A stretch of DNA of 64,000 nucleotides, taken from Parcubacteria bacterium GBS-2. Lineage in GTDB: Bacteria > Patescibacteriota > Minisyncoccia > Minisyncoccales > GBS-2. The position numbers and the translations under genes were made by a program. The notes under the pieces were generated by a model that did no database searches, had not been told where the DNA came from, and saw only the letters and a program-made list of their open reading frames with translations. Below, in pieces: positions 1 to 58,050 of the stretch (the first letter of the stretch is position 1; each line of letters begins with the position of its first letter). The DNA is taken from positions 28,429-92,428 of the forward strand of contig LEKP01000002.1 in assembly GCA_001443025.1 (NCBI GenBank). Reading direction: 5' to 3'.

Positions 1-613
1 ATTTTTCAGTGAAAAAGGATTCAAGCCTAGAAAACCTAAATTTGCCAGAGAAAATATTCTGCAAGAACTTATTCCTGAATTGCCAGGGATTTATGAAGGA
101 ATTGTATTTTATCAATTAGGACCAAAACTCCACCGTTGTTTCAAGGAAAAATTGAAAGGTTTAGCAATTTCTAATAAAACCCTATATTGGGCCCTTAAAA
201 GAAACGAGAAGGTAAAAGTAACTCCGGGGATTAAGTGTCCGATGAAACGCAGAGAATTCAATTGTTTTAATTGTGAAGAAAACCTCTTCTTCGATCCTTG
301 CAAATATTTTGTAGTTCGGCTCATTCAGTGAGAGTTTTTTAACTCTATTTTTTTTGAAATTTTTTAATCCGTGGCTTTTGTATTCTCAACCCAATAACCA
401 TCTTTTTTATTCTCTCTCTTTCTTCTAAAACGGCAGATACTTTAGTTTTTAATTTACAGATTGAGAAAAGAAAGCAAAAATTATTCCTGGAAAAAAATCG
501 CCAAAAGAGTCTTAGATTTTTATCAATTTTACAAAAAGAGAAAAACAACAAAATTTCTCTCTTCTTCACAAGTTTGTGATTTAGGGTAAAATAAAAATTG
601 GAGGTGGATAGAG

Positions 614-1612
614 ATGAGGGGTAGAAAAGTAAGCTTGGAGGAGTGGGAGGAGAGAAAAGTAAGGCTACTAGAATATTTAAAGGAGAACCCGAGAGCTACC
701 AGCAAAGATGTCATCAAGGCAGGGCACGCAAGTGTTCTTTTGAAGGTTTACGGTGGAAGGATAAACGAAGCTAAGGCTGAGGCTGGTGTTCCAAGGGGAA
801 AGAAAAGAAAACTAACTCCCTCAGAATGGGAGGAAAGAAAGAGAAAACTGCTGGAATTTCTCCGTGAAAACCCCGAAGCCACTCGTAGAGAAGCCAGTAA
901 GGCAGGGCATACAGGTGTTCTCTGGAAGATTTACGGTGGAAGGATAAACGAAGCTAAGGCTGAGGCTGGTGTTCTAGTGGAAAGGAAACGAAAACTAACT
1001 TCTTCAGAAAAGGCGAAAGTGAAAATAAGAAAAAGACGCAGATGGGTGTTCAAAAAGGGAAAGAATGAAGTAAGAGAGATTATCACTGAAATATTGAAAA
1101 GATGGAAAATTGAAGAAGAGTATATTGAAGAAATTGCAGAGAGTGCTATAGCTCACTTCCAAAAAGTGAAAGAAGTACTACTCAAAGGAAGAGGGGTTAT
1201 AAAAGTCAGTGAAGTATGTTGCTACCTTGCTTGTCGCCAATTAGGAATACCAGTTCCTTCCAAACCTCCTCGCAAGATATACCTGCAAATCATTGCTGCA
1301 ACAGGTAGCATCATTCCAATTGGTCATCCAGAGAAATATGTACCAATTATCTGCGAAAGGCTGCTTCCCAAAACAGATGCAGAGAAAGTTGCTAAAAAAG
1401 CAACTGGTATCTTAAGTTCCTCAAAGATTTCATTTGTGGGAAAGTCAGAGAAAGTGCTTGCTGCTGCAGCCGTATATCTTGCCGCAAAGGAGCTAAAATA
1501 TCTAATAACTCAAGAGGAGGTAAGCAAAGCAGCTCATACTACTTCAGTCTCTTTGAGAAACACATTGAAAATGCTTAGAAAAACTAACGCACCTTCTTTG
1601 TGTTGTTATTAA
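614..1612 (+). CDS. TFIIB/TFB-like cyclin-core protein with tandem duplicated ~65-aa N-terminal module (no Zn-ribbon)
   Basis: C-terminal ~200 aa align with the archaeal TFB core: VSEVCCYLACRQLGIPV matches SVMAACVYAACRLLKVP, EKYVPIICERL matches TDYVNKFADEL, and GKSEKVLAAAAVYLAAKE...TQEEVSKAAHTTSVSLRNTLKML matches GKSPAGLVAAALYIASLL...TQREVAEVARVTEVTVRNRYKEL. The N-terminus has two near-identical repeats (EEWEERK..LLE.L.ENP.AT...KAGH..VL.K.YGGRINEAKAEAGV). Confidence 0.6.
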   Translation: MRGRKVSLEEWEERKVRLLEYLKENPRATSKDVIKAGHASVLLKVYGGRINEAKAEAGVPRGKKRKLTPSEWEERKRKLLEFLRENPEATRREASKAGHTGVLWKIYGGRINEAKAEAGVLVERKRKLTSSEKAKVKIRKRRRWVFKKGKNEVREIITEILKRWKIEEEYIEEIAESAIAHFQKVKEVLLKGRGVIKVSEVCCYLACRQLGIPVPSKPPRKIYLQIIAATGSIIPIGHPEKYVPIICERLLPKTDAEKVAKKATGILSSSKISFVGKSEKVLAAAAVYLAAKELKYLITQEEVSKAAHTTSVSLRNTLKMLRKTNAPSLCCY

Positions 1613-12745: not shown

Positions 12746-13398
12746 TCAATTTCTGATTCCTTGCCGGCAAATTCTAACCATTCTCCTTCTGGAGAGATCA
12801 CATACCACTTTTTCTTTGTCTCAGACCAAACCATTGGCATCCCTCTATAATATGGTTTTTTAACAATTTCTTTTGGTTTTAGTTTGTCAAGCTCTAACCA
12901 TTTTTTAAACACTGTTTCTATTGCATAATCTAGATTTCTTGATTTTGCCCATTCTGCAACTTTTGCTATTGCTTCTTTTGCTTTTTCAGTTGACCCTGCC
13001 AGTTCTAAAAGCTGCTTTGCAGGTTTTGTATATCTTGAATAAATTATCTCCCGTTTTTTAGCAGATTCTTTTAATTTTTCCAAAGAAATTCCTTTAGTTT
13101 TAAAATAAAAAGTGACAATTTCTCTAATTTTTGTTTTTTCTTTTAAAATCTCGTAATCTTTAATTTTTCCAGTTTTTAAATATTCTTCTATTTTCTTTGC
13201 AATTCTCTTGCCAATACCAGGTAAAGCCTCCAAACCAAAAACTCCCCTTTCTTTATAAATTTTTCCAACATCTTCTTTTAATTGTAAAACTGATTTAGCT
13301 GCTCTTTTGTAAGCGAAAGGTTTTCCTTTTGCGCTATTTATTTCATAAAGTTCTGCCATATGTTTTAAAATTTTTGCAATTTTTTCATTCCTTTTCAT
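12727..13398 (-). CDS. Pol X (Pol beta)-like N-terminal 8-kDa/HhH domain protein, lacking the polymerase palm
   Basis: N-terminus NEKIAKILKHMAELYEINSAK..KPFAYKRAAKSV...LPGIGKRIAKKIEEYLKTGK matches the PolX lyase/HhH consensus; the remaining ~120 aa are unrelated. Confidence 0.5.
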   Translation of the reverse strand: MKRNEKIAKILKHMAELYEINSAKGKPFAYKRAAKSVLQLKEDVGKIYKERGVFGLEALPGIGKRIAKKIEEYLKTGKIKDYEILKEKTKIREIVTFYFKTKGISLEKLKESAKKREIIYSRYTKPAKQLLELAGSTEKAKEAIAKVAEWAKSRNLDYAIETVFKKWLELDKLKPKEIVKKPYYRGMPMVWSETKKKWYVISPEGEWLEFAGKESEIEWRIEK

Positions 13399-13694
13399 AG
13401 TTTTTTTAAAATTTCTTGATAAAAATTCTTTGCTTTTTCTAATTCTTTTTCTCCCTTTTCGGTAATCTGATAAACCCTTCTTCTATTTTCTATTTTACTT
13501 TTCACAAACCCATCTTTTTCAAGTCGATAGAGAACTCTATAGGGCGTTATTTTTCCTGGTTTAAATCCAAAATTCTCATTAATTTTTTTTGGAATATCCC
13601 AGGCGTGAGTACTTTCTTTTTTTAAAATCAAAAGAATATAAATCCAAAGGTTTTCTATTGTATTCGATTTTTTTAATCTTTCAAAAGGAAGCAT
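13395..13694 (-). CDS. PadR-family transcriptional regulator
   Basis: 99 aa winged HTH: LWIYILLIL....YRVLYRLEKDGFV......RRVYQITEKGEKEL. Confidence 0.8.
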   Translation of the reverse strand: MLPFERLKKSNTIENLWIYILLILKKESTHAWDIPKKINENFGFKPGKITPYRVLYRLEKDGFVKSKIENRRRVYQITEKGEKELEKAKNFYQEILKKL

Positions 13695-13756: not shown

Positions 13757-14860
13757 ATGTCAAAAGAAATAAGAATTGCCATAACAGGAGTAGGAAATTG
13801 TGCTTCAAGCCTTGTTCAAGGTTTATTTTATTACAAAAATGTCAAAGATGAAAGAGAGCTGGTTCCTGGGTTAATGCACAATGTTTTGGGTAGATATAAA
13901 ATTTCAGACATTAAAGTTGTTGCTGCTTTCGATATCGATGCAAGGAAAGTAGGGAAGGATGTTTCAGAAGCGATTTTTGCTCCTCCAAATTGCACTAAGA
14001 TTTTTTGTAAAAATGTGCCAAAAATTGGAGTTAAAGTGAAAATGGGACCTGTGTTAGATGGAGTGGCTCCTCATATGAAAGAATATCCAGAAGATAAAAC
14101 GTTCGTAATAGCAAAGAAAAAACCTGTTGATGTAGCAAAAGAATTAAAAAAAACCAGGGCAGAAATTTTAATTAATTATTTACCTGTTGGTTCCCAAAAG
14201 GCGGTAGAGTACTACGCAAACTGTGCATTGAAGGCAAGATGTGCTTTTATTAATTGTATGCCAGTTTTTATCGTTTCTAATAAAAAATGGGCAGAGAGAT
14301 TTGAAAAGAAAAAATTACCTTGCATTGGAGACGATATAAAAAGCCAAGTAGGAGCGACAATAGTTCATAGGACTTTATGTCACCTTTTTACCCAAAGAGG
14401 AGTTATAATCGATCGCTCTTATCAATTAAACTTTGGGGGGAACACAGATTTCCTTAATATGTTAGCTAGAGAAAGATTAAAATCAAAGAAAATTTCAAAA
14501 ACTGAAGCAGTGGAAGCAGAGCTTGCCAAAAGATTAAGTTACGATAATTTACATGTTGGACCTTCAGATTGGATTCCCTGGCTAAAAGATAACAAAATTT
14601 GTTACATCAGGATTGAAGGAAGAAAGTTTGGAAACGTACCAGTTGAACTTGAACTTAAACTTTCCGTTGAAGATTCGCCAAATTCTGCAGGATGTGTGAT
14701 AGACGCAATAAGGTTGGCAAAAATTGCTTTAGATAGAAAAATCGGGGGTCCATTAATTTCAGCCTCTGCTTATTTAATGAAGCATCCTCCGCAACAATTC
14801 ACTGATGAAAAAGCAAGAGAAATGGTCGAAGAATTTATAAAAGGTGAAAGAGAAAGGTAG
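13757..14860 (+). CDS. ino1: myo-inositol-1-phosphate synthase (Ino1 family)
   Basis: N-terminus IRIAITGVGNCASSLVQGLFYYKN is nearly identical to the mycobacterial/archaeal MIPS signature VRVAIVGVGNCASSLVQG; 367 aa. Confidence 0.85.
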   Translation: MSKEIRIAITGVGNCASSLVQGLFYYKNVKDERELVPGLMHNVLGRYKISDIKVVAAFDIDARKVGKDVSEAIFAPPNCTKIFCKNVPKIGVKVKMGPVLDGVAPHMKEYPEDKTFVIAKKKPVDVAKELKKTRAEILINYLPVGSQKAVEYYANCALKARCAFINCMPVFIVSNKKWAERFEKKKLPCIGDDIKSQVGATIVHRTLCHLFTQRGVIIDRSYQLNFGGNTDFLNMLARERLKSKKISKTEAVEAELAKRLSYDNLHVGPSDWIPWLKDNKICYIRIEGRKFGNVPVELELKLSVEDSPNSAGCVIDAIRLAKIALDRKIGGPLISASAYLMKHPPQQFTDEKAREMVEEFIKGERER

Positions 14861-15158
14861 TATGGAACCATTCGAAAGATTTAAAAAATTGAATACTGAA
14901 GGAAATTTATGGATTTACATTTTAAGTTTGGGAAGAGAAATAACCTGCGAAGATGAAGTAAGGAAATTGATCTTTGAGAAATTTGGGTTCTTACCAGGAA
15001 ACATTTTAACAAAAACAGTTTTGTATCGATTAAAAAGAAGAGGTTATATAAAACCAGAAAAATACAAAGGGAAGAAAGCGTTTATCAGAACTGAAAAGGG
15101 AGAGAAAGAGTTGGAAAAAATGAAAGAGTTTTGTAAAGAACTGTTACAAAAAATCTAG
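14844..15158 (+). CDS. PadR-family transcriptional regulator (paralog of 13395-13694)
   Basis: MEPFERFKKLNTEGNLWIYILSL...VLYRLKRRGYI...TEKGEKELEKMKEF parallels the upstream PadR almost motif-for-motif. Confidence 0.75.
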   Translation: MKEKGSMEPFERFKKLNTEGNLWIYILSLGREITCEDEVRKLIFEKFGFLPGNILTKTVLYRLKRRGYIKPEKYKGKKAFIRTEKGEKELEKMKEFCKELLQKI

Positions 15159-15790: not shown

Positions 15791-17208
15791 TTAAAGTAAC
15801 CCAATGTCCTTTCTCCATCGTATTCCTTTGAAGTATATTTTTTCAATTTCTCTGTACGTTATTTCTCTTGCTTCCTGCAAGGTATTGCCTTCTCCTACTA
15901 CTGTTAGTACTCTTCCTCCACTTGTTCGGAGAAATCCCTCTTGATCAAATTCTGTCCCATTGTGATAAATTGCTGCTTTAATGTAACTCTTTATATTAAG
16001 ACTTCTGTGCCATTTTAATGACTCAGTCGATTTCTTACTTTTTATGTATATTGGTTGGTTTGTATAGTGCTTGTCATCTGGGTAACCTGGGTAGTATCCT
16101 TTTCGTCCTGTGCACGGTCCGCTTACAGCGCAAAGGCCAACTGTCCATTTTTTCGAGTACCATTCCATTGTTATTTGGTCTAATCTTTGTTCCACTAGCG
16201 CGCTGTAAATTTCTACAAGATCAGTCTTCAAACGTGGTAATCGAACCTAAGCTTCTGGATCACCGTCGCGCACGTTATCTCTAGTACTTTGGGTCTTTTT
16301 TGTCCGTTTTCATTCACCATCATTATGACGAAATGCATTATTCCTATGTACTCTTTTCGATAGGGGAAATTTTCGATCGTAGGGAAGACAATTTCTTTCA
16401 GAACTTTTTCTTTTACATTTTTCTCTAACGGATGGGGAGAAATTGTTCCCATTCCACCTGAGTTAGGGTTCATTCCTCTGAAAAAGCCATTGATTATTCT
16501 TTGAGTTTTTCTATCTCTTTCGTGTTCTTCGAATGCTTTCTTGTAATCTCTTGCTGTTCCAAAAAATTCTACGTGTTCCCCGTCAGTTAGTACGAAGAAA
16601 GAAATTTCCTCTCCTTCAAGCTTTTCTTCGATTTCGATTTTTCTTCCTGCATTGTTGTATCTTTGATTAAAATCTTCACTGAAAACTTTATCAATTGCCC
16701 AAAGAGTTTCTTCTAACGAACCGCAAACAAATGTTCCTTTCCCTTCAACTATTCCATCAGCTTTCACTACTCGCATTTTTGGATTTTCTTTCACGAATTC
16801 TTTTGCTTTCTCAGGATTCTTGAAAATTTCGTACTCGGGGATAGGTACCCCAATTTTCTTTAAGTAGTCTTTAGTCCAACATTTACTGGTTTCTAAAATT
16901 GCTGCTTTTTTTGAAGGAGCAATGATTTCTAACTTTTTCTTTCTAAACTCGTCAGTAATTCCTCTTGAAATTGACGCCTCCGGTCCTACAACTGTGAAAT
17001 CAACTTCCTCATCTTCTGCAATTTCTCTAAGTTCTTCGATTGCCCTTATTGAAGTGGATTTGATTCTTCTGCATTTTTTTATTAATTCGCTCCCTCCATT
17101 TCCTCTTGTCATTATCACTTCTCTCACTTGGTGGCTTTTGACCAAAGCTTCCGCGATTGCATTTTCTCTTCCGCCTGTTCCAACTACTAAAATTTTATAT
17201 TCCTTCAA
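15791..17208 (-). pseudogene. purD: phosphoribosylamine--glycine ligase (purD) disrupted by a 1-nt frameshift and an in-frame TAG
   Basis: Two ORFs (16228-17208, 15791-16231) together cover PurD. At the junction, frame 1 gives KVLEITCAT; the frame after a 1-nt slip gives NVRDGDPEA-TAG-VRLPRLKTDLVEI, which matches the conserved FNCRFGDPETQ..LRLKSDLVEL. The TAG sits where the conserved Gln is, consistent with CAG>TAG. TAG is used as a stop elsewhere (rsmE). Confidence 0.7.
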
Positions 17209-18597: not shown

Positions 18598-18894
18598 TTA
18601 TTTCAATGTTTCAATAATCTTTTTTATTCTTTCTGCCTCTTCTTTCACAATCTCGCTTTCGTATTCTCCTGCATGAGCTGGGGTTCTTTCATATTTTGGA
18701 GCTTTTTGGTCCAAATGCAAATTAAAAATTAAGTTTTCACCCTCGATCTTCAAAATCAAATGAAATCTTGGGAACCCTTTAGGTGGTCTGACAAATTTGA
18801 TTTCGTCTCCACGTTTTTCTTGAAAAAAATAACCCAATTTTCTACTTAAAGAATAAATATTTTCTTTTAATGGTCCTTTTATTACAAATTTCAT
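18598..18894 (-). CDS. hypothetical small protein, translationally coupled to polB
   Basis: 98 aa; 4-nt overlap with the polB stop; no recognisable motif. Confidence 0.45.
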   Translation of the reverse strand: MKFVIKGPLKENIYSLSRKLGYFFQEKRGDEIKFVRPPKGFPRFHLILKIEGENLIFNLHLDQKAPKYERTPAHAGEYESEIVKEEAERIKKIIETLK

Positions 18895-21290
18895 TTTATT
18901 AACTCAGACTCTGAAATTCCCAAAACTTGCAAAATTCTCATTGCTGCAGGTAAAATTTGATGACCAATGTAATAATCCAAATCTATCTTTTCTAATTTTG
19001 CAAATTCTACAGGCTGAGCCCTTTCAGAAATTGAACCCAAACCCTCTTCAATTACAAACATTATTACTTGTCCTTCTCCAACTTCGATTCCTCTTTCTTT
19101 CATTTTTTTGGCAGCTATTACATGGGGTGAAATTAATTTATATTGCTCAATTGGTTTTGTTAATTCCTCATAAATTATCAAATCCTTCAGTGAAACTTTC
19201 CTTTTTCTCAAATCGTTGATTACTTTTCTTACATACTCTTTCGCACCCTCAACATCTTTTTCTTTTAGTACAAATTCCAAAACTTTCCTTTGAATTTCTT
19301 TTGCCAAATTGCACCAATCTCTTCTTACTGTTTCCAATCCTCTAATCAATAAATTTCCTTTTTCATCAACTAAAGCGTATCTCTTTTTTGCAGTTCCGTA
19401 AGTTCCTCTTGGAATAAAAATTCCTCTTTCATAGAATCCTTGAAGTTCCAATTCCAAAATCCCTGGAAATTTTTGATTGATTTTTTTTAAAAATCCTTCA
19501 ACTTCTTTCTCAATTTCTTCTGATTTTTTCAAAAATAAAGAATCAGTATCAGCATAAATTACAGAAAATCCTTCTTTTTCAGCTTCTTTTATTGTTTCCT
19601 TTATCCAATATCTTCCAAATGCTGTACAGCTTTCTGCGCACTCTTTTGAATACCACTTTGAGGCAGGAAAACCAAAATATCCGTAAGTTGCATTAGCAAT
19701 GATTTTTAGAGCATATTGTCTGTTATCTAAAACTTTGTATTCGAAAGAATCTTTTGGAATAGTTTTCAATTTCTTTTTGAGTTCTGTTCTTTTCTGAATT
19801 ATTTCTTTTAAAACTGAAGGAACAAATCCTTCTCTCTTTTTGCAAAACCAATGATTCAATTCTGGAACCTTATGTCCATTGCCTTTACAACACTCACAAT
19901 TTAGAGTTTCTGGAGAAATGTTAAAAGAAACAATTAAGGAAGGATACAAAGATCTAAAATCCAAAACTGAAATTTTTTCGTGAATTCCTAAAACTGGTTC
20001 CTTTACAAACCCTCCAACATAAGTTTTCTTTCTTCTTTCTTGAATTTCTTCATATTTTGGCTGATTTGGAATAATTTCTCCTTTTTCTCCAGCTTTTCTT
20101 GACAAATACCATTCAACCAATTGCCCATAAGTCATTCTTGAAACATCAAAAAGAACTTGGCCTACGGTCCTTGAAATTTCAAAAATCTGTGGTAACAAAA
20201 CTTCACCCAACCTAAAAGTTAATTCTGAATCTTTCAAGCAATATTCTGCCAATTTTTCCAAATTCTTTCCTTTTCTCCAGCTTTCTAACAATTCTTGATA
20301 ATCCATTTCAATTTTTTTATCTCCTAAAATTTCCGTTGCCACTGAATCTAAAGTTAAAACTTCAGTTTGGAGGTTAGGGGAGAGGATGTTTTGGGTAAAG
20401 TTAAAAAGGTCAATGTGAACTATTCCGTTAAATCTTGCTGCTGAAATTTTAGCTCTTCTTGCAAACTTTGTCTCTTTCTTGTCCCTTGAAATTATTAATT
20501 TTATTTTGTTTTTCTCGCATCTTTGATCTAAAATTGGAAAGTCAAAAGAATCTCCATAATAAGTCAAGATGATGTCAGGATTTTCTTTTTGAAAAATTTC
20601 AACAATTCTTTCTAAAATTTTTCTTTCGTTTTCTAAAACCTCAACCCATTCTTTGTAATTTGATTTTTGGGAAGTTAAAACTTTTTTGAAGTTTTTTCCA
20701 AAAAAGGATGCCATTACGATTTCTTTTTCTCCCTTCTTTTCAACAGTTTCAATGTCAAAAGCCAAAATTTTTAATTCTGGAATTGAGATTTCTTCTAAAA
20801 CTTCAATCTTTTGACAATCTATTGCAAAATCGACATTATAATTTGTTTTAATTTCTTTTCCTTCAACATCAACCCAACAACATCCATTAATTCTTTTGTC
20901 GATTAAAAATTTTCTGTAAAAATTAATGGCGTATTCGAATTCATCGATTATTGAACCTTTTCCTCCTCTCTTTTCTTCTAAAACTTTAATGATATCTCTA
21001 ATGTTTTGAGTGTCTGCTGGCCTTTTGCAAACAATCTTTATAAAATCTCTTTCTTTGCCTGCCAATTTCATTTTCACTTTTTCAATTTTTTCAACTTGAA
21101 TTTTCTTTTCTGTTAAAAGTTTTTGAATATCAGAAATTGCTTCAGTTTTATTCTTTGGCAAAACAAAAAAATAGGGCTTTTCTTCAAAAAACAAAATCCC
21201 ATTTTGCCCTTTTTCATTCTTTCCCCAAAGCCTGATTTTCGTTTTCCCTTCCTCAACTATATAATCTGCATCCAAAATAAAGAATCTCAT
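18891..21290 (-). CDS. polB: family B DNA polymerase with intact 3'-5' exonuclease
   Basis: Exo I FDIET, Exo II YYGDSFDFP, Exo III YCLKDS; Pol motif A DFRSLYPSLI, motif B KIIANATYGYFG, motif C YADTDS; 799 aa. Confidence 0.92.
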   Translation of the reverse strand: MRFFILDADYIVEEGKTKIRLWGKNEKGQNGILFFEEKPYFFVLPKNKTEAISDIQKLLTEKKIQVEKIEKVKMKLAGKERDFIKIVCKRPADTQNIRDIIKVLEEKRGGKGSIIDEFEYAINFYRKFLIDKRINGCCWVDVEGKEIKTNYNVDFAIDCQKIEVLEEISIPELKILAFDIETVEKKGEKEIVMASFFGKNFKKVLTSQKSNYKEWVEVLENERKILERIVEIFQKENPDIILTYYGDSFDFPILDQRCEKNKIKLIISRDKKETKFARRAKISAARFNGIVHIDLFNFTQNILSPNLQTEVLTLDSVATEILGDKKIEMDYQELLESWRKGKNLEKLAEYCLKDSELTFRLGEVLLPQIFEISRTVGQVLFDVSRMTYGQLVEWYLSRKAGEKGEIIPNQPKYEEIQERRKKTYVGGFVKEPVLGIHEKISVLDFRSLYPSLIVSFNISPETLNCECCKGNGHKVPELNHWFCKKREGFVPSVLKEIIQKRTELKKKLKTIPKDSFEYKVLDNRQYALKIIANATYGYFGFPASKWYSKECAESCTAFGRYWIKETIKEAEKEGFSVIYADTDSLFLKKSEEIEKEVEGFLKKINQKFPGILELELQGFYERGIFIPRGTYGTAKKRYALVDEKGNLLIRGLETVRRDWCNLAKEIQRKVLEFVLKEKDVEGAKEYVRKVINDLRKRKVSLKDLIIYEELTKPIEQYKLISPHVIAAKKMKERGIEVGEGQVIMFVIEEGLGSISERAQPVEFAKLEKIDLDYYIGHQILPAAMRILQVLGISESELIK

Positions 21291-26866: not shown

Positions 26867-27481
26867 TTAGAACAATAAAATAATTTTTGATGATTTTGAG
26901 GGAAAAAAGGCAATTTTATCAAAAATAATCAAGCTTCCACTTAAACCTGGAATGTTTGTTTTCTTTACTTTTATTTGCCCCAATCTTTTTTTGATTGATT
27001 GGTAAATTTTTTTCCTCTCTCTTTGGCCAATAGGATTTAACTCTGGATTGACGATCAAAATTTCGGGGGTGGAGGAGAGAGAAAGAATTTCGATGAATGC
27101 CTTTTTTCCTTCTTTTCCTTGAAAAATTCTAATCCCTTCTTTTTCTCTCGAATACTTTGCTTCCAAAATCGAAACAATTCTGGTAAATTCTCTTTCCTTT
27201 TCTTCGATTTCTCTCTTTTTGATTCTTAAAAATCTCAAAATTTGGCTTGGGGATTGAGCGACAAAAAGTCTCTTTTTTCCTCTTTTCGTTTCAACAAATA
27301 ATCCCTTTTCTTCTAATTTTTTTACAATCTCATAAACAGTCGGTCTTGGAATTTTCACTTTTTCTGCAATATTTTTTATTGGACTTGGCCCTAATTCCAA
27401 ACCCGCCAAATAAACTTTGACCTCCTTTTCTTTCAAGCCCAATTTTTTCAATTCCAACTCAATTGGTAATTCAAGAACCAT
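26867..27481 (-). CDS. TrmB-family transcriptional regulator
   Basis: N-terminal wHTH: LGLKEKEVKVYLAGLELGPSPIKNIAEKVKIPRPTVYEIVKKLEEKGLF. Confidence 0.7.
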   Translation of the reverse strand: MVLELPIELELKKLGLKEKEVKVYLAGLELGPSPIKNIAEKVKIPRPTVYEIVKKLEEKGLFVETKRGKKRLFVAQSPSQILRFLRIKKREIEEKEREFTRIVSILEAKYSREKEGIRIFQGKEGKKAFIEILSLSSTPEILIVNPELNPIGQRERKKIYQSIKKRLGQIKVKKTNIPGLSGSLIIFDKIAFFPSKSSKIILLF

Positions 27482-27579: not shown

Positions 27580-27942
27580 ATGCCAAAAATTTTAATAATT
27601 GAAGATGAAAAGGTTTTAGCCCAAATGTACAAAGAAAAATTTGAAAAAGAAGGGTTTGAAGTTTATTTAGCCTTTACTTCAAATGAGGGACTAGATTTGG
27701 CGAAAAAAGAAAAACCAGACTTGATTTTATTGGACATTCTATTACCGGGAAAAGATGGAATTTCTTTTCTTAAATGGCTCAAAAATGAACTTCAAATTTC
27801 ATCAATTCCAGTAGTTGTCCTTTCAAATTACGATGACCCAAAAACAAAAAAAGAGGCATTTGAATTAGGAGTGAAAGAATATTTATTGAAAACCGATTAT
27901 ACTCCACAACAACTAGTAGAAAAAATAAGAAAATATCTCTAA
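27580..27942 (+). CDS. receiver-only response regulator, paralog 2
   Basis: MPKILIIEDEKVLAQMYKEKFEKEGFEV...DLILLDILLP...EYLLKTDYTPQQL; 120 aa. Confidence 0.85.
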   Translation: MPKILIIEDEKVLAQMYKEKFEKEGFEVYLAFTSNEGLDLAKKEKPDLILLDILLPGKDGISFLKWLKNELQISSIPVVVLSNYDDPKTKKEAFELGVKEYLLKTDYTPQQLVEKIRKYL

Positions 27943-28908: not shown

Positions 28909-30444
28909 ATGGCAAAAATAGGAGAACTAATGCAAAAATTCATAATGTCGAACCCAGATAGGGCGTTAAAATTTTTTGCTTCAAGATCTGCAGAATGGTG
29001 GGAAAGGAGGGGAGAGAAGAAGGCTCTTCAAACGTTCCATGCAACTGCAGAGAGGGTCCCAGCTTATAAAGATTTTTTAAAAAAACATGGGATAACTGAT
29101 CATACAAAAATTCAAACGTTAGAAGACTTTAAGAAATATGTACCACTTCTTACTAAAGAAAATTACATTTTGGCTTATGATCTCAAAGAAAGATTAGCTG
29201 TTCCTTATGAGGATTTATTTACTATTTCTACTTCTTCTGGAACCATGGATAAACCTATTTATTGGCCGCGAACAGCATTTCAAGATAAAATGACTTCACG
29301 TTATTTTGAACTAATTTTTCGCGATGTTTATCAAATTCATAAACTTTCAACTTTAGCGATAGTGGCTTTTTCTTTAGGAAATTACATAGCCGGAGAATTG
29401 GTTAATTTTGTTGTGAAAGATATTGCCTTGCGCAATAAAAATAAGGTGAGTGTTGCTACGCCAGGTTCAGACCTTGAGGGAGTTTTACAAATCTTAACAG
29501 GCTTTCTAGATAAGTATGACCAGACCGTTATTTTCTGTTATCCTTCTTTGTTTAGAATTTTAATAGAAGAAGGAAAAAAGGTAGGAATAAATTGGAAAAA
29601 TTATAACGTCAAATGGTGTTATGGGGGGGAACCGTGTCCTCCAAAAATGAAAGCAAAAATTAAAGCGGAGGTTTTAGGAGAAAAAGAAGATTATACGTTT
29701 ATTCTCGCTGTTTATGGGGCGGCCGACGCAGGAGGAATTGGTTTTGGGAATCCATTCACTAATTTATTGGAGGAAATAATTCAAACAAATCCAAAAATCC
29801 AAGAAGGACTAAGAAAAAGAGGGATTGAATTAGAGGGCTCTTTAGTACAAGTAAACCCTTTGGCATATTTTATAGAAGAGGAAGATGACTATCTAATAAT
29901 TACAACCGGGGGAGCGGTTCCACTTGTAAGATATAATATCAAAGACCTGGGAGAAATTATTCTTTTTGAAGAAATGAATACTATTCTGAAAGAGGGTGGA
30001 ATAAATATTCAAGAACTTTTGAGAGAGAAATTGCACTCATATTATTTAATGAAACAACCTTTAGTTTTAATAAAGGGTAGGGAGGCTGCAGTTTCTTTAG
30101 ATGGAGCTAACGTTTTTCATTATCAAGTCAAAGAGATTATAGAAAAATCTCCTCACTTTAACAGTGTAAAAATTGGGAAAAAAGAGTTAGAGGGAGGAAA
30201 TGTAAAATTTGCAGTATATTTGGAATTGAAAAAAGATATTCAGCTTTCAAGTAATGAAATAGAAAAGTTGAAAAAAGAGTATCGTGATAAGATTCTTAAT
30301 CATCTGTTAGAAGTAAATTACGATTTCAGAAGATCTTATCAAGATAATCCTACTTTGTGCGATCCGGAAATTATTATTAGAAAATTTGGAGAAAAAGAAT
30401 TTGCTCCTACTAAATCTGGTAAATTTAAGCCAATAGTTATATAA
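28909..30444 (+). CDS. adenylate-forming enzyme (PaaK / coenzyme F390 synthetase / GH3-like)
   Basis: N-terminus RVPAYKDFLKKHGI..IQTLEDFKKYVPLLTKENY resembles PaaK; AMP-motif TSSGTMDKPIYWP; VRYNIKDLGEI hinge. Confidence 0.6.
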   Translation: MAKIGELMQKFIMSNPDRALKFFASRSAEWWERRGEKKALQTFHATAERVPAYKDFLKKHGITDHTKIQTLEDFKKYVPLLTKENYILAYDLKERLAVPYEDLFTISTSSGTMDKPIYWPRTAFQDKMTSRYFELIFRDVYQIHKLSTLAIVAFSLGNYIAGELVNFVVKDIALRNKNKVSVATPGSDLEGVLQILTGFLDKYDQTVIFCYPSLFRILIEEGKKVGINWKNYNVKWCYGGEPCPPKMKAKIKAEVLGEKEDYTFILAVYGAADAGGIGFGNPFTNLLEEIIQTNPKIQEGLRKRGIELEGSLVQVNPLAYFIEEEDDYLIITTGGAVPLVRYNIKDLGEIILFEEMNTILKEGGINIQELLREKLHSYYLMKQPLVLIKGREAAVSLDGANVFHYQVKEIIEKSPHFNSVKIGKKELEGGNVKFAVYLELKKDIQLSSNEIEKLKKEYRDKILNHLLEVNYDFRRSYQDNPTLCDPEIIIRKFGEKEFAPTKSGKFKPIVI

Positions 30445-30457
30445 TTTAATTTAAATA

Positions 30458-32029
30458 ATGGATTTGTATTTCTTGCTCTATCAGGTTTTAGTAATTGTTA
30501 TTGATTTTTCAGGATTAGGAATTGGAATTTTGGTATTACAAAAAGATATTAAAAACCCAACCAACCAGCTCTTTTTTTTAATGACTCTTTTCGCTCTAGG
30601 TTGGATTACTTTTGCGTATCTTTCTGACTTTCCATTTCTATTTCAAAATGCGCTTTTATTTAATAGAATTATTTATTTTTTTCTTTCTCTTTTTTTTATA
30701 ACTGTTTATTTTTTTAGCTTTTACTTTCCTCGCAAAGAAAAAATTTCTCCATTTTTCCGCATAATCAATAAATTTTATTTAATTTTTGGGATCTTTATTA
30801 GCATCTTAGCGCTTTTTACTTCCTTAATAATTCGAGATGTTAGAAAAACTCCTTGGGGAACTGACCTGGTACTTGGTGAATTATTTCCCCTTTTCGCTTT
30901 CTTAGGATGTGGATGGATTGCCTCTCTCTTTATTTTAATTAAGAAATTTTTCAAACTCCCTTCTCACGAAAAACTACAAATAAAATATTTTATAATGGGT
31001 TTTTTAATTTTTCTCTTCGCAAATATTATCTTTAACGTAATTGTGCCTCATTTGCGGGGTACTTATGAATATTATTGGTTTGGCAATCTTTCCATAATTT
31101 TCTTTCTTGGATTTACAGCCTATGCAATTTTTGCAAAACACCTTTTTGGTATTGAAGTAATTTTAACTGAAATTTTAGTTGGAATAATTGGATTATTGCT
31201 AATAGTTCAAATTTTTACAGCGCCGACAATTTTGTGGAGATTTATTAATATCTTGATTTTTATCTTATTTTGCATTTTTGGTTATTTTTTAATTCGGAGT
31301 GTTTTGAGAGAAATTAAGTTGAGAGAGGAAATAGAAAAAATCAGTCAAGCAAAAACAGAATTCATTTCGATTACTTCCCATCAATTGAGGACTCCGCTTT
31401 CTGCTATTAAAGGGTATTTATCAATGATCTTGGAGGGTTCTTATGGACAATTACCAGAGAAAGTAAAAGAAAAAATGGAAAATGTTTTTCAATCGAATGA
31501 AAGGTTAATAAAATTGGTAAACGATATTTTAAACGTCTCAAAGATTGAAGCAGGGGAAATAGAAATGAATTGGGAGAGGGTGGATTTGAGAGAAATAATT
31601 AAAGAAGTAATCAATGAACTTTCTATAAAAGCAAAAGAAAAGAATCTTTATTTGAATTTTGAAGAACCAAAAGAGGTTCCAAAAGTTTTGTTAGATAGCG
31701 AGAAAATAAGGCAAGTAATTTTGAATTTGATTGATAATGCAATAAGGTACACCCAAGAAGGAGGAGTTAATGTTAAATTGCAAATGTCAAAAGGTAAATT
31801 GCAAATTGTGATAGCAGATACTGGTGAGGGATTGACAAAAGAGGAAAAAGAAAAACTTTTTAAAAGATTTTCAAGGGGAACTGCTGGAACAAAATTTTGG
31901 ACAGAGGGAGCAGGACTTGGGCTTTACATTGTAAGAAGGTTTGTTGAAATGCATAATGGAAAAATTTGGGCTGAGTCTGAGGGAAGGGGAAAAGGATCGA
32001 CTTTCTTTGTTGAATTGCCAATAAAATGA
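30458..32029 (+). CDS. sensor histidine kinase with polytopic (~7-8 TM) N-terminal sensor
   Basis: HisKA H-box ITSHQLRTPLSAIKGY; N box NLIDNAIRYT; G boxes DTGEG and GGAGLGLYIV. Confidence 0.9.
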   Translation: MDLYFLLYQVLVIVIDFSGLGIGILVLQKDIKNPTNQLFFLMTLFALGWITFAYLSDFPFLFQNALLFNRIIYFFLSLFFITVYFFSFYFPRKEKISPFFRIINKFYLIFGIFISILALFTSLIIRDVRKTPWGTDLVLGELFPLFAFLGCGWIASLFILIKKFFKLPSHEKLQIKYFIMGFLIFLFANIIFNVIVPHLRGTYEYYWFGNLSIIFFLGFTAYAIFAKHLFGIEVILTEILVGIIGLLLIVQIFTAPTILWRFINILIFILFCIFGYFLIRSVLREIKLREEIEKISQAKTEFISITSHQLRTPLSAIKGYLSMILEGSYGQLPEKVKEKMENVFQSNERLIKLVNDILNVSKIEAGEIEMNWERVDLREIIKEVINELSIKAKEKNLYLNFEEPKEVPKVLLDSEKIRQVILNLIDNAIRYTQEGGVNVKLQMSKGKLQIVIADTGEGLTKEEKEKLFKRFSRGTAGTKFWTEGAGLGLYIVRRFVEMHNGKIWAESEGRGKGSTFFVELPIK

Positions 32030-32402: not shown

Positions 32403-32768
32403 ATGAAGAAAATTTTAATAATTGAGGATGAAAAGGTTTTAGCAGAGATGTACAAGGAGAAATTGGAAATGGAAGGCTTTGAAGTGTGTTTGGCTTTTGA
32501 TGTGAAAGAGGGAATAGAATTGGTAAAAAGAGAAAGACCTGATCTGATTTTGCTTGATATTTTGCTCCCCGTCGAAAACGGGGTTTCTTTTTTAAAAAGG
32601 CAAAAAGAAGATAAAGATATATCTGAAATTCCAGTAATCGCTTTTTCAAACTACGATGATCCAAGAGTAAAGAAAGAAGCAATTGAACTTGGGGTAAAAG
32701 AGTATTTGATCAAGACAAACTATACTCCAACAGAAATCACTGAGAAAATAAAAAAATATCTGAAGTGA
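32403..32768 (+). CDS. receiver-only response regulator, paralog 3
   Basis: MKKILIIEDEKVLAEMYKEKLEMEGFEV...DLILLDILLP...EYLIKTNYTPTEI; about 65% identical to paralog 2. Confidence 0.85.
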   Translation: MKKILIIEDEKVLAEMYKEKLEMEGFEVCLAFDVKEGIELVKRERPDLILLDILLPVENGVSFLKRQKEDKDISEIPVIAFSNYDDPRVKKEAIELGVKEYLIKTNYTPTEITEKIKKYLK

Positions 32769-49146: not shown

Positions 49147-50166
49147 TTACGTCTCTTTTTTTCTAACCTGAAGTTTTTTTCTAATTAAGAACGCAGTTAC
49201 AATTACGCTAACTATGATTAAAATTAAAACAATTGAAATTTGAATGATTTTCTTGGGGTGTAATTCTTTCTTGGGTCGAACTGTTTCTTTTTCTTTTATT
49301 TTTTCTGGATAGAAAGTAGCAATTGTTTCGTTTCCTGCTCTATCCACTGCTTTGACTTTTATTTCTTCATCCAAATTCTGATTTTCTAACAAATAAGGAC
49401 TTTTTGCTATTTTCCATTCTCTTTCTCCTTCTTTTACCATGTAATAATCAACTCCGGTTTCTTTATCAGTGGTATAAAAAACTATAAAATATTTTCCATC
49501 AAAAATGGCAGGATCTCTCTGAATTTGAATTTCAAAAGGTTCTGGGGGGGTAGTATCATTTAACAATTTTTCTCGCCACTCATTTAACCCTTTGCCAGAG
49601 GTGGGTAAAATTTTGATTTTTGAATCTTGAAGAGTAAGTCTTGCTAAAGTTCCTCTACCATCATTTAGAAAAACTTGAGAAGTGTTTAAAATTTTAATTT
49701 CTGCAATTTTTTCTTCAACTTCTCCTACTATCATTGAAGGTATAAAAAACCTAATTTCACCAATCACATTTGTCATCCCCGGATCTCCTGGAATTCTTCC
49801 ACAATAACCACCTGGAATTCCTCCAGAAAAAGAAATTTTTCCAGTTTCATTGATTTTTTTAGTATCTAAACTTGATGGTCTTTCAACCCAGATTGTAACG
49901 ATTGAATCTCCAAAATCTGCTCCTTCAAAGATTAAGGTATCATTTGGAAAACTTAAATCAACTGAAATTGTGTTAATACATTCTCCTTCCGGATCAATCC
50001 TGATTTTAATACCAAAATGATCCTTAAGACCGTATTCACCTTCTTTGGGATCTAAATATAAAACAGCACCAAAAATAAATGATGGTAAAACTGAAAACAA
50101 CAAACAAAAAGCCAAAATTTTTAATTTAAGGTGTGGAATTTGGAATTTGGAATTTGGAATTTTCAT
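49147..50166 (-). CDS. surface protein with N-terminal signal and C-terminal TM anchor; 5' heptanucleotide SSR
   Basis: Signal peptide, C-terminal IIQISIVLILIIVSVIVTAFLIRKK anchor; (AATTCCA)x4 in codons 2-10. Confidence 0.5.
   Translation of the reverse strand: MKIPNSKFQIPHLKLKILAFCLLFSVLPSFIFGAVLYLDPKEGEYGLKDHFGIKIRIDPEGECINTISVDLSFPNDTLIFEGADFGDSIVTIWVERPSSLDTKKINETGKISFSGGIPGGYCGRIPGDPGMTNVIGEIRFFIPSMIVGEVEEKIAEIKILNTSQVFLNDGRGTLARLTLQDSKIKILPTSGKGLNEWREKLLNDTTPPEPFEIQIQRDPAIFDGKYFIVFYTTDKETGVDYYMVKEGEREWKIAKSPYLLENQNLDEEIKVKAVDRAGNETIATFYPEKIKEKETVRPKKELHPKKIIQISIVLILIIVSVIVTAFLIRKKLQVRKKET
50134..50161. repeat. heptanucleotide SSR (TGGAATT)x4, minus-strand (AATTCCA)x4
   Basis: Perfect 4-unit tandem repeat directly after the start codon of the 49147-50166 gene. 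Confidence 0.85.
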
Positions 50167-50167
50167 T

Positions 50168-51208
50168 TTATCCTGTCCAATAATACATCATTATACTAAA
50201 ATCGACTAAATTCACTATTCCATCTTGGTTTTGGTCTGCACAAGGATTGTTAGTCCCCCAATAGTAAAGTAAAATTGAAAAGTCGATTAAATTTACTTTC
50301 CCATCTTGGTTTAAATCAGCACCAGGACAAATTCCAACTGGTGGCTTTTTCCCAACATAGAAAGTAACAAATCTGCTAAAACTGCTTACCACCGTTGCTC
50401 CTTCTATTATTGTTTTGAATTGGGATTTGGCTGTGTGCATTGATTCATCTTCTAAAGGAGAAGTATCAAAGAAAAGGTCCCATTCTCCTTTTTCTGTAGA
50501 AGTGGTTTCTTGGATTATTTCAGCTGGCGAGGCAATGTAAACTGGAACTTTAGCTTCTGGAATAGTTTGACCGAATATTTTTAGTATTTCCCCTCTTTTT
50601 ACAACATTTTTATCTACCCCAATAGTGGGTGGTAAATATGCTCCTCTAACAGTCGTCACAGCATTTGGCATTACTTCAAAGGTTAAAGTATATAAAATTG
50701 ATCTCAGTCCAAATTTATCATCTGCCCAAAAACTTAAGGTATTAATCCCTGGAGTAATATCTGTTGTTTGCCAGGAAAAATTTGCTTTTGAATCGGTTCT
50801 TACTCTGGCGATTTCCTTTCCATCTTTTAAAATTCTCACTTCAGTATCGGGATAGGCTTTCCCCAAAACAATTAAGGTAGTGGGTCCCAAAGGTCTCATT
50901 GCTCCTCCAGGATATCCCCCACCCCCTGCCCCCATTCCTCCAGGTTCTACATAACAGTGCTCAATGGAAATTCTAGTGCAATTATCAACACAGAGTAAAT
51001 ATCCTCGATTATATCCGTAAGTTGCGCAAGTTTTGCCCCCGAAATTGTCTCCGTCGCAAACTTCAAAACCATCGATTCTTCCATCACCACAAACTGAAAT
51101 TCCAACTATGGTAGGAACTTGTTTTTGAGCAAAGACTTTTAGAGAAAAAATTAAAAGAAAGGTTAAAATTAGAAAGAAAATTTTCAAAAATTCCTTCCAT
51201 AATTTCAT
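50168..51208 (-). CDS. secreted protein with Cys-rich repeat and C-terminal dockerin-like module
   Basis: CGDGRIDGFEVCDGDNFGGKTC (Myxococcus-type C-G-D-G...E.CD.GN repeat); C-terminal DLNQDGKVNLIDFSILLYYW and DQNQDGIVNLVDFSIMMYYW (two dockerin Ca-binding repeats). Confidence 0.6.
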   Translation of the reverse strand: MKLWKEFLKIFFLILTFLLIFSLKVFAQKQVPTIVGISVCGDGRIDGFEVCDGDNFGGKTCATYGYNRGYLLCVDNCTRISIEHCYVEPGGMGAGGGGYPGGAMRPLGPTTLIVLGKAYPDTEVRILKDGKEIARVRTDSKANFSWQTTDITPGINTLSFWADDKFGLRSILYTLTFEVMPNAVTTVRGAYLPPTIGVDKNVVKRGEILKIFGQTIPEAKVPVYIASPAEIIQETTSTEKGEWDLFFDTSPLEDESMHTAKSQFKTIIEGATVVSSFSRFVTFYVGKKPPVGICPGADLNQDGKVNLIDFSILLYYWGTNNPCADQNQDGIVNLVDFSIMMYYWTG

Positions 51209-51212
51209 AAAA

Positions 51213-52169: not shown

Positions 52170-52198
52170 TTCTGGTTAAAAATGATAAAAACTTTAGC

Positions 52199-53956: not shown

Positions 53957-54048
53957 TTGTTATTTTTAATTTGCCTCGACCTTTTTAATTTTTGTTTCTT
54001 TTTTAATTCTACCATAAATCCCGAAAAATTGTATCAATTATGAAAATC

Positions 54049-56537: not shown

Positions 56538-56541
56538 ATTT

Positions 56542-58005: not shown

Positions 58006-58050
58006 TATTTCTATTTTACCACATTCTAAAAATCTTTTATAATCAATGTA

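What the first reader, a model, noticed from the sequence alone, without database searches (positions are those of the whole stretch)
614..1612. TFIIB/TFB cyclin-core protein in a bacterial genome, fused to a duplicated N-terminal module
The C-terminal ~200 aa align segment-by-segment with the archaeal TFB/eukaryotic TFIIB core (AACVYAACR-like helix, the EKYV linker, and the GKS...AAAAVYLAA...TQEEV...RN..K.L second cyclin repeat). Flanking genes are unmistakably bacterial (dnaX, cysS, mur genes). A TFIIB core without Zn-ribbon or B-reader, preceded by two copies of a ~65-aa module, would be an unusual transcription-associated factor for a bacterium. The first cyclin repeat appears to lack the DNA-contacting HTH helices.
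Basis: partly seen in the sequence, partly recalled or inferred. Interest (0 to 1): 0.85.

Follow-up and report, generated by a model that had tools for sequence, protein, structure and literature searches.

The report
Archaeal-type TFB core in a bacterium
A hot-spring bacterium of the Candidate Phyla Radiation carries a conserved gene built from the DNA-binding core of the archaeal/eukaryotic transcription initiation factor TFB/TFIIB. The core is fused to two copies of a small, previously unmodelled helix-turn-helix repeat that other bacteria attach to sigma factors. This is an unexpected, probably repurposed, piece of archaeal transcription machinery in a bacterium.

Summary
ORF 614-1612 (+, 332 aa) has a C-terminal TFB/TFIIB core (Pfam PF00382 E 2.5e-13; Foldseek to P. 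woesei TFBc, probability 1.0, TM 0.65-0.70). It also has two tandem 61-aa N-terminal modules (183-nt DNA repeat). It lacks the Zn ribbon, B-reader and B-linker.

The host is bacterial, a Patescibacteria/CPR lineage: mur genes, dnaX and ftsW are present, and PyrG is 82% identical to CPR MAGs. The same arrangement recurs in at least six independent assemblies, so this is not contamination.

New findings:
- A small "short-core" subfamily shares an 11-12-aa deletion that removes one helix of the first repeat's HTH. The second repeat's recognition helix is conserved.
- The gene sits at a syntenic locus (after a GT4 gene) in at least five related lineages. There it evolves fast and shuffles its modules.
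- A second TFIIB-repeat gene lies just upstream, cut by the window edge. A relative carries a full Zn-ribbon TFB-like gene.
- The module has a TetR-N-like HTH fold, occurs in 1-8 tandem copies, and is fused elsewhere to sigma-70-family factors and sigma-54 activators.

Most likely it is a repurposed multi-HTH DNA-binding transcription regulator, not a general initiation factor. Function is inferred, not shown.

The parts
614..1612 (+). Gene for the 332-aa protein: two HTH modules, a basic linker and a truncated TFB/TFIIB core
   Evidence: ORF. Pfam, NCBIfam and PDB matches. AF2 model pLDDT 82. An identical protein is found on 8 contigs.
565..606 (+). Sigma-70-like promoter (TTCACA-16-TAAAAT, 565-592) and Shine-Dalgarno GGAGGTG (600-606)
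   Evidence: The -10 and leader block (TAGATAAAATAAAAATTGGAGG-like) is conserved upstream of the orthologs in L011, L007 and L009. These are consensus matches only, not shown to be functional.
641..823 (+). Module copy 1 (residues ~10-70): four-helix HTH-like repeat
   Evidence: Tandem DNA repeat. Module HMM hit at residues 12-61. pLDDT about 90.
824..1006 (+). Module copy 2 (residues ~71-131)
1007..1108 (+). Highly basic linker (residues 132-165; 15 K/R in 34 aa; pI 11.5), low model confidence
   Evidence: It is 17 aa shorter in the 76%-identical homologue P0002.
1061..1309 (+). Cyclin-like repeat 1 of the TFB core (residues ~150-232), four helices instead of five
   Evidence: Helices in the model. 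Alignments to TFBs.
1247..1270 (+). Site of the subfamily-specific 11-12-aa deletion (PVPSKPPR replaces ~PRTLDEIADIARVDKKE of TFB)
   Evidence: The deletion is shared by P0002, P0003, P0013, P0019 and P0026 and is absent from Zn-ribbon TFBs.
1325..1588 (+). Cyclin-like repeat 2 (residues 238-325), complete, with its C-terminal HTH. The recognition helix is residues 311-325 (SVSLRNTLKMLRK), with R315 invariant.
   Evidence: Best Pfam stretch is 238-323. R315 is invariant (N316 in 10 of 11) across short-core proteins, the paralog and bona fide TFBs.
2..331 (+). 3' end of a second, adjacent TFIIB-repeat gene (233 aa; one CLR2-type repeat plus a Cys-containing C-terminal extension), cut by the window edge
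   Evidence: The full gene is at L001:9017-9718. The window ORF matches it at E 2.6e-74. Pfam TFIIB E 4e-13.

Best explanation
The gene encodes a lineage-specific, cytoplasmic DNA-binding transcription regulator (or architectural promoter-binding protein). It derives from an archaeal TFB acquired by a thermophilic Patescibacteria (CPR) clade.

The parts of TFB that engage archaeal RNA polymerase (Zn ribbon, B-reader, B-linker) are gone. The HTH of cyclin repeat 1, which in TFB flanks the TBP stirrup, has lost a helix.

What remains is the two-repeat scaffold, with the intact HTH of repeat 2. In TFB/TFIIB this HTH reads the upstream BRE, and it is the structural counterpart of sigma region 4 on the -35 element.

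Two TetR-N/homeodomain-like HTH modules and a very basic linker were added. The resulting protein (pI 10) has three potential major-groove readers and can bind DNA on its own, without TBP.

Shown: homology, fold, domain losses, bacterial host, synteny, purifying selection on the modules, and the module's association with sigma factors. Inferred: DNA binding, a regulatory role, and the direction of transfer. The target genes are unknown.
For: TFB-core homology and fold.

Loss of the ribbon, reader and linker.

Shared deletion in repeat 1, with strongly conserved flanking motifs (CCYLACRQxGIPVPxKP...PERYxPxIC.RL).

Repeat 2 recognition helix: the R of the 'LRN' motif is invariant from the short-core proteins to genuine TFBs, and the N is kept in all but one. 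The role of the repeat 2 HTH at BREup and its equivalence to sigma region 4 is taken from PMC4581349 and PMC8131849.

Module partners are DNA-binding or initiation proteins: Sigma70_r4 in 9 of 72, HTH_17 in 9 of 72, sigma-54 AAA+ activators in 2 of 72, and an ECF sigma.

Charge: protein pI 10, linker pI 11.5.

Signs of a functional, resident gene:
- A bacterial promoter and SD, conserved among orthologs.
- dN/dS 0.20 across the modules.
- Core GC3 close to the genome mean.
- The same locus in at least five related lineages.
- No signal peptide or hydrophobic segment is visible in the sequence.
Against: No experiment or binding-site evidence exists, and I found no conserved operator-like motif beyond the promoter and leader block.

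Neighbours give no functional hint. The gene follows a GT4 glycosyltransferase and is convergent with cysS. No RNAP, sigma or TBP gene lies in the 64-kb window or the 10 kb upstream.

The core evolves much faster than its flanks: 34-49% identity against 71-90% for DnaX, CysS and GT4. Its similarity does not track flank similarity. That is unusual for a housekeeping regulator and fits conflict-type or accessory genes.

One lineage keeps only the modules at this locus (P0004), so the core is dispensable there.

Confidence: 0.5

Rival explanations
1. It is an RNA-polymerase- or sigma-associated initiation co-factor. The repeat module would be a docking domain for the bacterial transcription machinery, which would explain why sigma factors and sigma-54 activators carry it. 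The TFB core would then supply an extra promoter-anchoring HTH, acting as a sigma-region-4-like appendage in trans.
For: The module is fused N-terminally to sigma-70-family proteins with regions 2-4 (P0015, P0017, P0021), C-terminally to an ECF sigma (P0024), and to sigma-54 AAA+ activators (P0031). The TFB repeat 2 HTH and sigma region 4 are proposed structural equivalents (PMC4581349).
Against: Most module proteins are stand-alone arrays or are fused to ordinary HTH domains such as HTH_17. That fits a DNA-binding repeat better than an RNAP dock. The query has no sigma region 2 or 4 hit, and the known RNAP-binding parts of TFB are exactly what has been lost. No linkage to rpo or sigma genes was seen.
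Confidence: 0.15
2. It is a cross-domain interference factor. An episymbiotic CPR bacterium would make TFB decoys that act on an archaeal host. A core lacking the ribbon and reader could occupy TBP/BRE promoters without recruiting RNAP, while the full-length TFB-like paralog of relatives could engage host RNAP.
For: The clade carries several TFB-derived genes. These include a Zn-ribbon plus B-reader version behind a consensus TTGACA-16-TATAAT promoter, even though bacteria have no cognate RNAP.

The locus shows fast, mosaic, domain-shuffling evolution typical of conflict genes.

The source is a 77 C spring sediment. Some CPR bacteria are ectosymbionts of archaea (bioRxiv 10.1101/2022.04.20.488981, listed).
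Against: There is no signal peptide, no secretion-system neighbour and no host evidence. The deletion removes part of the repeat 1 HTH that lies beside the TBP stirrup in TFB-TBP-DNA complexes, which argues against TBP-dependent binding. The modules are shared with bacterial sigma factors, pointing to a role inside bacteria. The full-length paralog is about 25-30 aa short in the B-linker and scores below the TFB family cut-off.
Confidence: 0.1
3. It is a decaying remnant of a horizontal transfer with no current function, or an assembly chimera.
For: The family is very rare. There were four close homologs among 5.8 billion clustered proteins, none in 185,579 GTDB species genomes, and three loci in JGI metagenome contigs. 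The gene's GC is an outlier (41% against 32.6%, z 2.7). The N-terminal modules are frameshifted in one lineage, and the core is absent in another.
Against: The ORF is intact in every lineage that has it. The fold is predicted with confidence. dN/dS is 0.20 in the modules. Strongly conserved subfamily motifs include 23 invariant columns. The bacterial promoter and SD are conserved. An identical arrangement appears in at least six independent assemblies.
Confidence: 0.05

Closest known systems
Archaeal TFB / eukaryotic TFIIB core domain (e.g. P. woesei TFBc, PDB 1AIS/1D3U; human TFIIBc 1VOL/1C9B)
   Same: Both have two tandem cyclin-like repeats, with 24-25% identity and TM 0.65-0.70 over about 195 residues. 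Repeat 2 keeps its HTH and the conserved GKS...AAA.Y.A...TQ...V...RN signature.
   Different: The query has no Zn ribbon, B-reader or B-linker. One helix of the repeat 1 HTH is deleted. Two unrelated HTH modules and a basic linker are fused at the N-terminus. It is encoded in a bacterium with no TBP or archaeal RNAP in view. It scores 47.7 bits against the family cut-off of 384.
Truncated or divergent TFB paralogs and viral TFB homologs (archaeal-virus and giant-virus TFIIB-like proteins; phrog_20431)
   Same: These are also TFB-derived proteins outside the canonical general-factor role. The query matches phrog_20431 at E 1e-13 and a Saccharolobus rod-shaped virus TFB-like protein by fold.
   Different: Those act in hosts that have TBP and an archaeal or eukaryotic RNAP. 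No phage, plasmid or IMG/VR relative of the short-core form was found.
Sigma-70 region 4 (HTH that reads the -35 element)
   Same: It is the proposed structural and functional counterpart of the TFB repeat 2 HTH (PMC4581349). The N-terminal module of this protein is also found fused to sigma-70-family factors.
   Different: The query has no detectable sigma-family sequence. Homology between sigma and TFB is a literature hypothesis and was not tested here.
TetR-family N-terminal DNA-binding domain / homeodomain-like tri-helical HTH (with Myb-type tandem repeat arrays as an analogy, from my own knowledge)
   Different: It belongs to no known sequence family: no Pfam or NCBIfam model covers it and no PDB sequence relative exists. 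DNA binding has not been shown.

Membership tests
TFB/TFIIB general transcription factors | N-terminal Zn ribbon that docks on RNA polymerase | tested here: not met
   There is no PF08271 hit at E<=10 and no CxxC pairs in the sequence. Genuine TFBs retrieved in the same searches have it.
TFB/TFIIB general transcription factors | B-reader and B-linker between the ribbon and the core | tested here: not met
   The NCBIfam TFB model aligns only from model position 101. The multiple alignment shows the query starting after the linker.
TFB/TFIIB general transcription factors | Two complete five-helix cyclin-like repeats (core domain) | tested here: inconclusive
   Both repeats are detected (Pfam two stretches; Foldseek ~195 aligned columns). 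Repeat 1 has four helices because of an 11-12-aa deletion.
TFB/TFIIB general transcription factors | HTH of repeat 2 with conserved recognition helix (BRE reader) | tested here: met
   The helix pair at 300-307 and 311-325 is present in the model. R315 is invariant (N316 in 10 of 11) in alignments with TFBs. Actual DNA contact was not tested.
TFB/TFIIB general transcription factors | Curated whole-protein score (NCBIfam NF001658 cut-off 384 bits) | tested here: not met
   The score is 47.7 bits.
TFB/TFIIB general transcription factors | Works with TBP and an archaeal/eukaryotic-type RNA polymerase encoded by the same genome | not testable with these tools
   No TBP or archaeal RNAP subunit lies in the 64-kb window or the 10 kb upstream. 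The whole genome is not available here. CPR bacteria are not known to have either (my own knowledge).
Pfam PF00382 (TFIIB repeat) domain family | Score above the gathering threshold | tested here: met
   The score is 50.3 bits against 23.6.
Cyclins (PF00134/PF02984) | Cyclin_N/Cyclin_C profile match or best fold match to CDK-binding cyclins | tested here: not met
   Cyclin_C scores E 0.013, below threshold. Cyclin structures rank below all TFIIB, Brf1 and Brf2 entries, with TM ~0.24.
Sigma-70 family | Regions 2 and 4 | tested here: not met
   The query has no sigma-family hit. Only other module-bearing proteins have them.
TetR_N / homeodomain-like HTH (N-terminal module) | Tri-helical HTH fold | tested here: met
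TetR_N / homeodomain-like HTH (N-terminal module) | Sequence-profile membership | tested here: not met
   No TetR_N hit was found. Only weak HTH_24 matches cover the first helix. The PDB profile search had no hit below E 0.2.

The most novel reading that the evidence does not exclude
The TFB-derived genes of this CPR clade may be tools for acting on an archaeal partner's transcription machinery. The set comprises the ribbon-less short core, a single-repeat paralog and, in a sister lineage, a full Zn-ribbon version behind a consensus bacterial promoter. They would work as decoys or mimics of the host's TFB at TBP/BRE promoters or on host RNAP. The hypervariable, recombining, domain-shuffling locus would then reflect an arms race. 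This would be the first case of a bacterium targeting archaeal basal transcription.
Probability: 0.08. Interest if true: 0.92.

Novelty: new variant of a known kind. Interest (0 to 1): 0.64.

Why it matters
TFB/TFIIB, TBP and TFE are textbook markers that separate archaeal and eukaryotic transcription initiation from the bacterial sigma system. Here a TFB-derived gene family is stably resident in a bacterial clade and expressed from bacterial signals. It has been stripped of its polymerase-recruiting parts and joined to a repeat domain that other bacteria attach to sigma factors.

If it binds promoters, it is a natural experiment in moving a cyclin-repeat HTH into a sigma-driven system. That would give an experimental handle on the proposed equivalence of the TFB repeat 2 HTH and sigma region 4.

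The analysis also defines a new, unmodelled HTH repeat family (about 50 aa, 1-8 tandem copies) associated with bacterial initiation factors. No paper describing TFB homologs in CPR bacteria was found in the searchable library. That library lacks most subscription journals.

Tried and rejected
- Contamination or chimera: rejected. Identical synteny appears in at least six independent assemblies, and orthologous loci exist in relatives.
- Generic cyclin or ORC6-like fold: rejected. TFB, TFIIB and Brf entries outrank all cyclins.
- Prophage, plasmid or defence-island origin: not supported. There was no hit in INPHARED phages or IMG/VR, and only a haloarchaeal TFB in plasmids. PADLOC found nothing for the query and only a weak mad1 match to the HTH of the paralog. 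The only integrase in the window is an XerC/D-type gene 42 kb away.
- Module identity: a 'homing-endonuclease-associated repeat' or any other Pfam family was recalled as a lead, but no Pfam family covers the module.
- Genome-wide distribution: the GTDB scan with short-core motifs found nothing. The JGI contig scan found only the query lineage. A 5.8-billion-protein word-index search with a 50-sequence module profile returned nothing significant. The earlier profile search was swamped by K/E-rich words and gave only 8 hits.
- afdb50 fold search: not available.
- Littlefield et al. 1999, wanted for residue-level TFB-DNA and TBP contacts: not held. Contact-residue statements therefore rest on PMC4581349, PMC8131849 and my own knowledge.
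- Operator motif in orthologous upstream regions: only the -10 and leader block is shared.
- Single or multiple acquisition of the three CPR TFB-like types: unresolved. By BLAST they are not each other's nearest relatives, and the hits carry no taxonomy.

Full report
**1. What is there**

The window has an ATG-started ORF at 614..1612 on the + strand, 332 aa. A GGAGGTG Shine-Dalgarno sits at 600-606 and a sigma-70-like TTCACA-16-TAAAAT at 565-592.

The protein has three parts:
- Residues ~10-131 are two tandem copies of a 61-aa module. At the DNA level this is a 183-nt direct repeat, 641-823 / 824-1006, 77% identical. The peptides are 64% identical.
- Residues 132-165 are an extremely basic linker, with 15 K/R in 34 residues.
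- Residues ~150-325 match the TFB/TFIIB core.

The whole protein has pI 10.

**2. The TFB/TFIIB assignment is solid**

Sequence evidence:
- Pfam PF00382 scores 50.3 bits (E 2.5e-13, gathering 23.6) in two stretches.
- The NCBIfam TFB model aligns residues 135-323 to model positions 101-304 of 312.
- phmmer against PDB sequences finds Pyrococcus woesei TFB core at E 3e-6 and human TFIIB at E 3e-5.

Structural evidence:
- An AlphaFold2 model has mean pLDDT 82, with about 90 in the modules and most of the core.
- By Foldseek it matches 1d3u_B and 1ais_B with probability 1.0 and TM(target) 0.65-0.70 over about 195 columns.
- Human TFIIB, Brf1 and Brf2 follow. CDK-binding cyclins trail at TM ~0.24.

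There is no Zn-ribbon hit and no CxxC pair. The alignment starts after the B-linker. As a member of the general-factor family it fails the ribbon, reader/linker and curated-score criteria (47.7 bits against 384). It is a TFB-core derivative, not a TFB.

**3. A defined subfamily with a deletion in repeat 1**

Searching 1.84 billion representative proteins gave 225 hits at E<=1e-3, in two classes.

The closest core matches are P0002, P0003, P0013, P0019 and P0026. They share the signature W.vEEE.I...CCYLACRQxGIPVPxKP..Y..I....IPxGxPERYxPxIC.RL.

They also share an 11-12-residue deletion relative to all Zn-ribbon TFBs. The missing segment corresponds to TLDEIADIA(RVD) of P. woesei TFB. In the model, repeat 1 has four helices and repeat 2 has five.

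According to PMC4581349 and PMC8131849, the last three helices of each repeat form a tri-helical HTH. Repeat 1 contacts BREdown and repeat 2 contacts BREup, and both abut the TBP stirrup. The deletion therefore removes the middle helix of the repeat 1 HTH.

By contrast, the repeat 2 HTH is intact. Its recognition helix (SVSLRNTLK) keeps the Arg, which is invariant in every sequence aligned, including bona fide TFBs; the Asn beside it is kept in all but one. From my own knowledge, this Arg corresponds to the BRE-contacting Arg of TFIIB.

**4. The host is a bacterium of the Candidate Phyla Radiation**

The window encodes MurC, MurD, MraY, FtsW, MurG, a PBP5-type carboxypeptidase, DnaX, EF-P, ribosomal protein L9, HisKA kinases, response regulators and an XerC/D recombinase. 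Upstream in other assemblies lie DnaB, RecR, ribosomal protein L21 and a Mur ligase.

Its CTP synthase is 82% and 77% identical to MAGs labelled Candidatus Saccharibacteria. It is 60-68% identical to other Patescibacteria (Wildermuthbacteria, Berkelbacteria) and at most 53% to non-CPR bacteria.

The identical protein occurs on 8 contigs. Six are shown, from Great Boiling Spring 77 C sediment metagenomes and unrelated ENA assemblies, all with the same gene order. Contamination or chimerism is excluded.

No sigma, RNAP or TBP gene lies in the window or the 10 kb upstream.

**5. Genomic and evolutionary context**

Immediately upstream, cut by the window's left edge (window 2-331), is a second TFIIB-repeat gene of 233 aa. 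It has one repeat-2-type cyclin repeat plus a Cys-containing tail.

Related contigs have 33-34% GC, with DnaX 71-90%, CysS 79-84% and GT4 85-88% identical to the window's proteins. They keep a gene at the same position, directly after the GT4 glycosyltransferase and only 4 nt after it in L029. Its architecture varies:
- module-core-module in P0003 (L007);
- core followed by two modules in P0013 (L026, L027), with remnants of N-terminal modules broken by a frameshift;
- core followed by one module in P0019 (L029);
- three modules and no core in P0004 (L009).

Core identity to the query is only 34-49% and does not track flank identity.

Between the query and its 76-81%-identical relative P0002 the divergence is mosaic. 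The modules show dS ~1.06 with dN/dS 0.20, while the core shows dS 0.045.

The gene is a GC outlier (41% against 32.6%, z 2.7). This is due mainly to the modules (GC3 0.41). Core GC3 (0.28) is near the genome mean of 0.25.

Taken together, the core is long-resident, while the locus recombines and shuffles modules.

L007 additionally carries a full-length TFB-like gene (P0009, 278 aa). It has a Zn ribbon, a B-reader-like EWRTF...GLST segment and two complete repeats. It scores 238 bits on the TFB model (cut-off 384) and is about 25-30 aa short in the B-linker. It is preceded by TTGACA-16-TATAAT.

**6. The N-terminal module**

An iterated HMM finds 244 copies in 82 of the 159 proteins retrieved, in arrays of 1-8 copies. 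The consensus is ERKEELLEYLRENPDATRRDIRKAGLGSVLRKFYGGRINEARKDAGIP.

No Pfam or NCBIfam model covers it and no PDB sequence is related.

Fusion partners among 72 module proteins are:
- Sigma70_r4 in 9. NCBIfam alignments show regions 2-4 in P0015 and P0017, and P0024 is an ECF sigma.
- HTH_17 in 9.
- Sigma-54 AAA+ activators in 2.

The module is therefore a promiscuous HTH-type accessory domain of bacterial DNA-binding and initiation proteins.

**7. Interpretation**

The most economical reading is a repurposed TFB core. The RNAP-recruiting N-terminus and part of the TBP-side HTH were lost, the BREup-type HTH was kept, and autonomous DNA affinity was supplied by two extra HTH modules and a basic linker. 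That yields a bacterial transcription regulator or promoter-architectural protein (confidence ~0.5).

The rivals are:
- an RNAP- or sigma-associated co-factor (0.15);
- a decoy acting on an archaeal host's basal machinery (0.1), suggested by the multiplicity of TFB-derived genes, the Zn-ribbon paralog in a relative and the conflict-like evolution of the locus, but without any secretion or host evidence;
- a non-functional remnant (0.05), contradicted by conservation, selection and intact ORFs.

**8. Rarity and novelty**

Relatives of the short-core form were absent from 185,579 GTDB species genomes, from IMG/VR and from phage records. The only plasmid hit was a haloarchaeal TFB. Only the query lineage was recovered from the JGI contig scan.

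Six literature searches found no description of TFB homologs in CPR or Patescibacteria.

I rate it a new variant of a known kind: a TFB/TFIIB core in a new domain of life, with a new architecture and a new repeat domain. Interest is 0.64. The function is not demonstrated.

Noticed in passing
window 2-331 (+); full gene L001:9017-9718: A second TFIIB-repeat gene (233 aa) lies directly upstream and is truncated by the window edge. It has one repeat-2-type cyclin repeat preceded by the last two helices of repeat 1, plus a ~100-aa tail with a C-x8-C-x2-C-x9-C pattern of unknown fold. It is seen only in the query lineage.
   Followed up: partly
L007:3377-4213 (promoter at ~L007:3313-3340): A related CPR contig carries a full-length TFB-like gene (Zn ribbon, B-reader-like segment, two complete repeats; 278 aa). 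It lies between cysS and GtrA/dnaX, behind a consensus TTGACA-16-TATAAT. It is about 25-30 aa short in the B-linker region and scores below the NCBIfam TFB cut-off. A 125-aa ORF with a faint Mrr_cat match lies just upstream.
   Followed up: partly
L026:7636-8000 and L027:827-1191: Two N-terminal module copies upstream of P0013 are split from the core by a frameshift. This is reproduced in two independent samples, while two intact modules sit at the C-terminus of the same gene. It appears to be module relocation or decay in progress.
   Followed up: partly
window 614-1612 versus L011 (P0002): Divergence is mosaic. The module region has dS ~1.06 and the core region dS ~0.045, and there is a 17-aa indel in the basic linker. 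This suggests recombination that swaps module cassettes between strains.
   Followed up: partly
L009:1555-2109: At the same syntenic position (after GT4) one lineage has a 184-aa protein made of three modules and no TFB core. Downstream in L009, L026 and L029 lies a conserved bPH_2 / Asp_protease_2 / DUF5678 trio that the window lacks.
   Followed up: no
window 18891-21290 (-): A family-B DNA polymerase (799 aa, with exonuclease domain) lies in this CPR genome, next to a metallophosphoesterase and glutamine synthetase.
   Followed up: no
window 13395-13694 (-), 14844-15158 (+), 13757-14860 (+), 26867-27481 (-): Two paralogous small PadR-type regulators flank a myo-inositol-1-phosphate synthase gene. 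A TrmB-family regulator, a family best known from archaea, lies further on.
   Followed up: no
window 15791-16231 (-) and 16228-17208 (-): PurD is split into two ORFs that overlap by 4 nt. One carries GARS_N and GARS_A, the other GARS_C. This could be a frameshift, a sequencing error or a genuinely split gene.
   Followed up: no
window 27580-27942 (+) and 32403-32768 (+): Two paralogous receiver-only response regulators (about two-thirds identical by eye) bracket a 511-aa ORF with no Pfam hit and a HisKA/HATPase kinase (28909-32029).
   Followed up: no
window 49147-63463 (-): This is a run of large secreted or surface proteins with few or no Pfam hits. It includes a 1152-aa protein with a Gly_rich_2 domain, a 585-aa ORF with no hit, a MacB/FtsX-type ABC transporter pair and a pentapeptide-repeat protein.
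   Followed up: no
L033:8001-10328 (NCBI GCA_053535175.1): P0017 is a 775-aa sigma-70-family protein with six N-terminal copies of the module in place of region 1.1. It lies next to RtcB, archease and PCMT genes. The organism was not identified.
   Followed up: no
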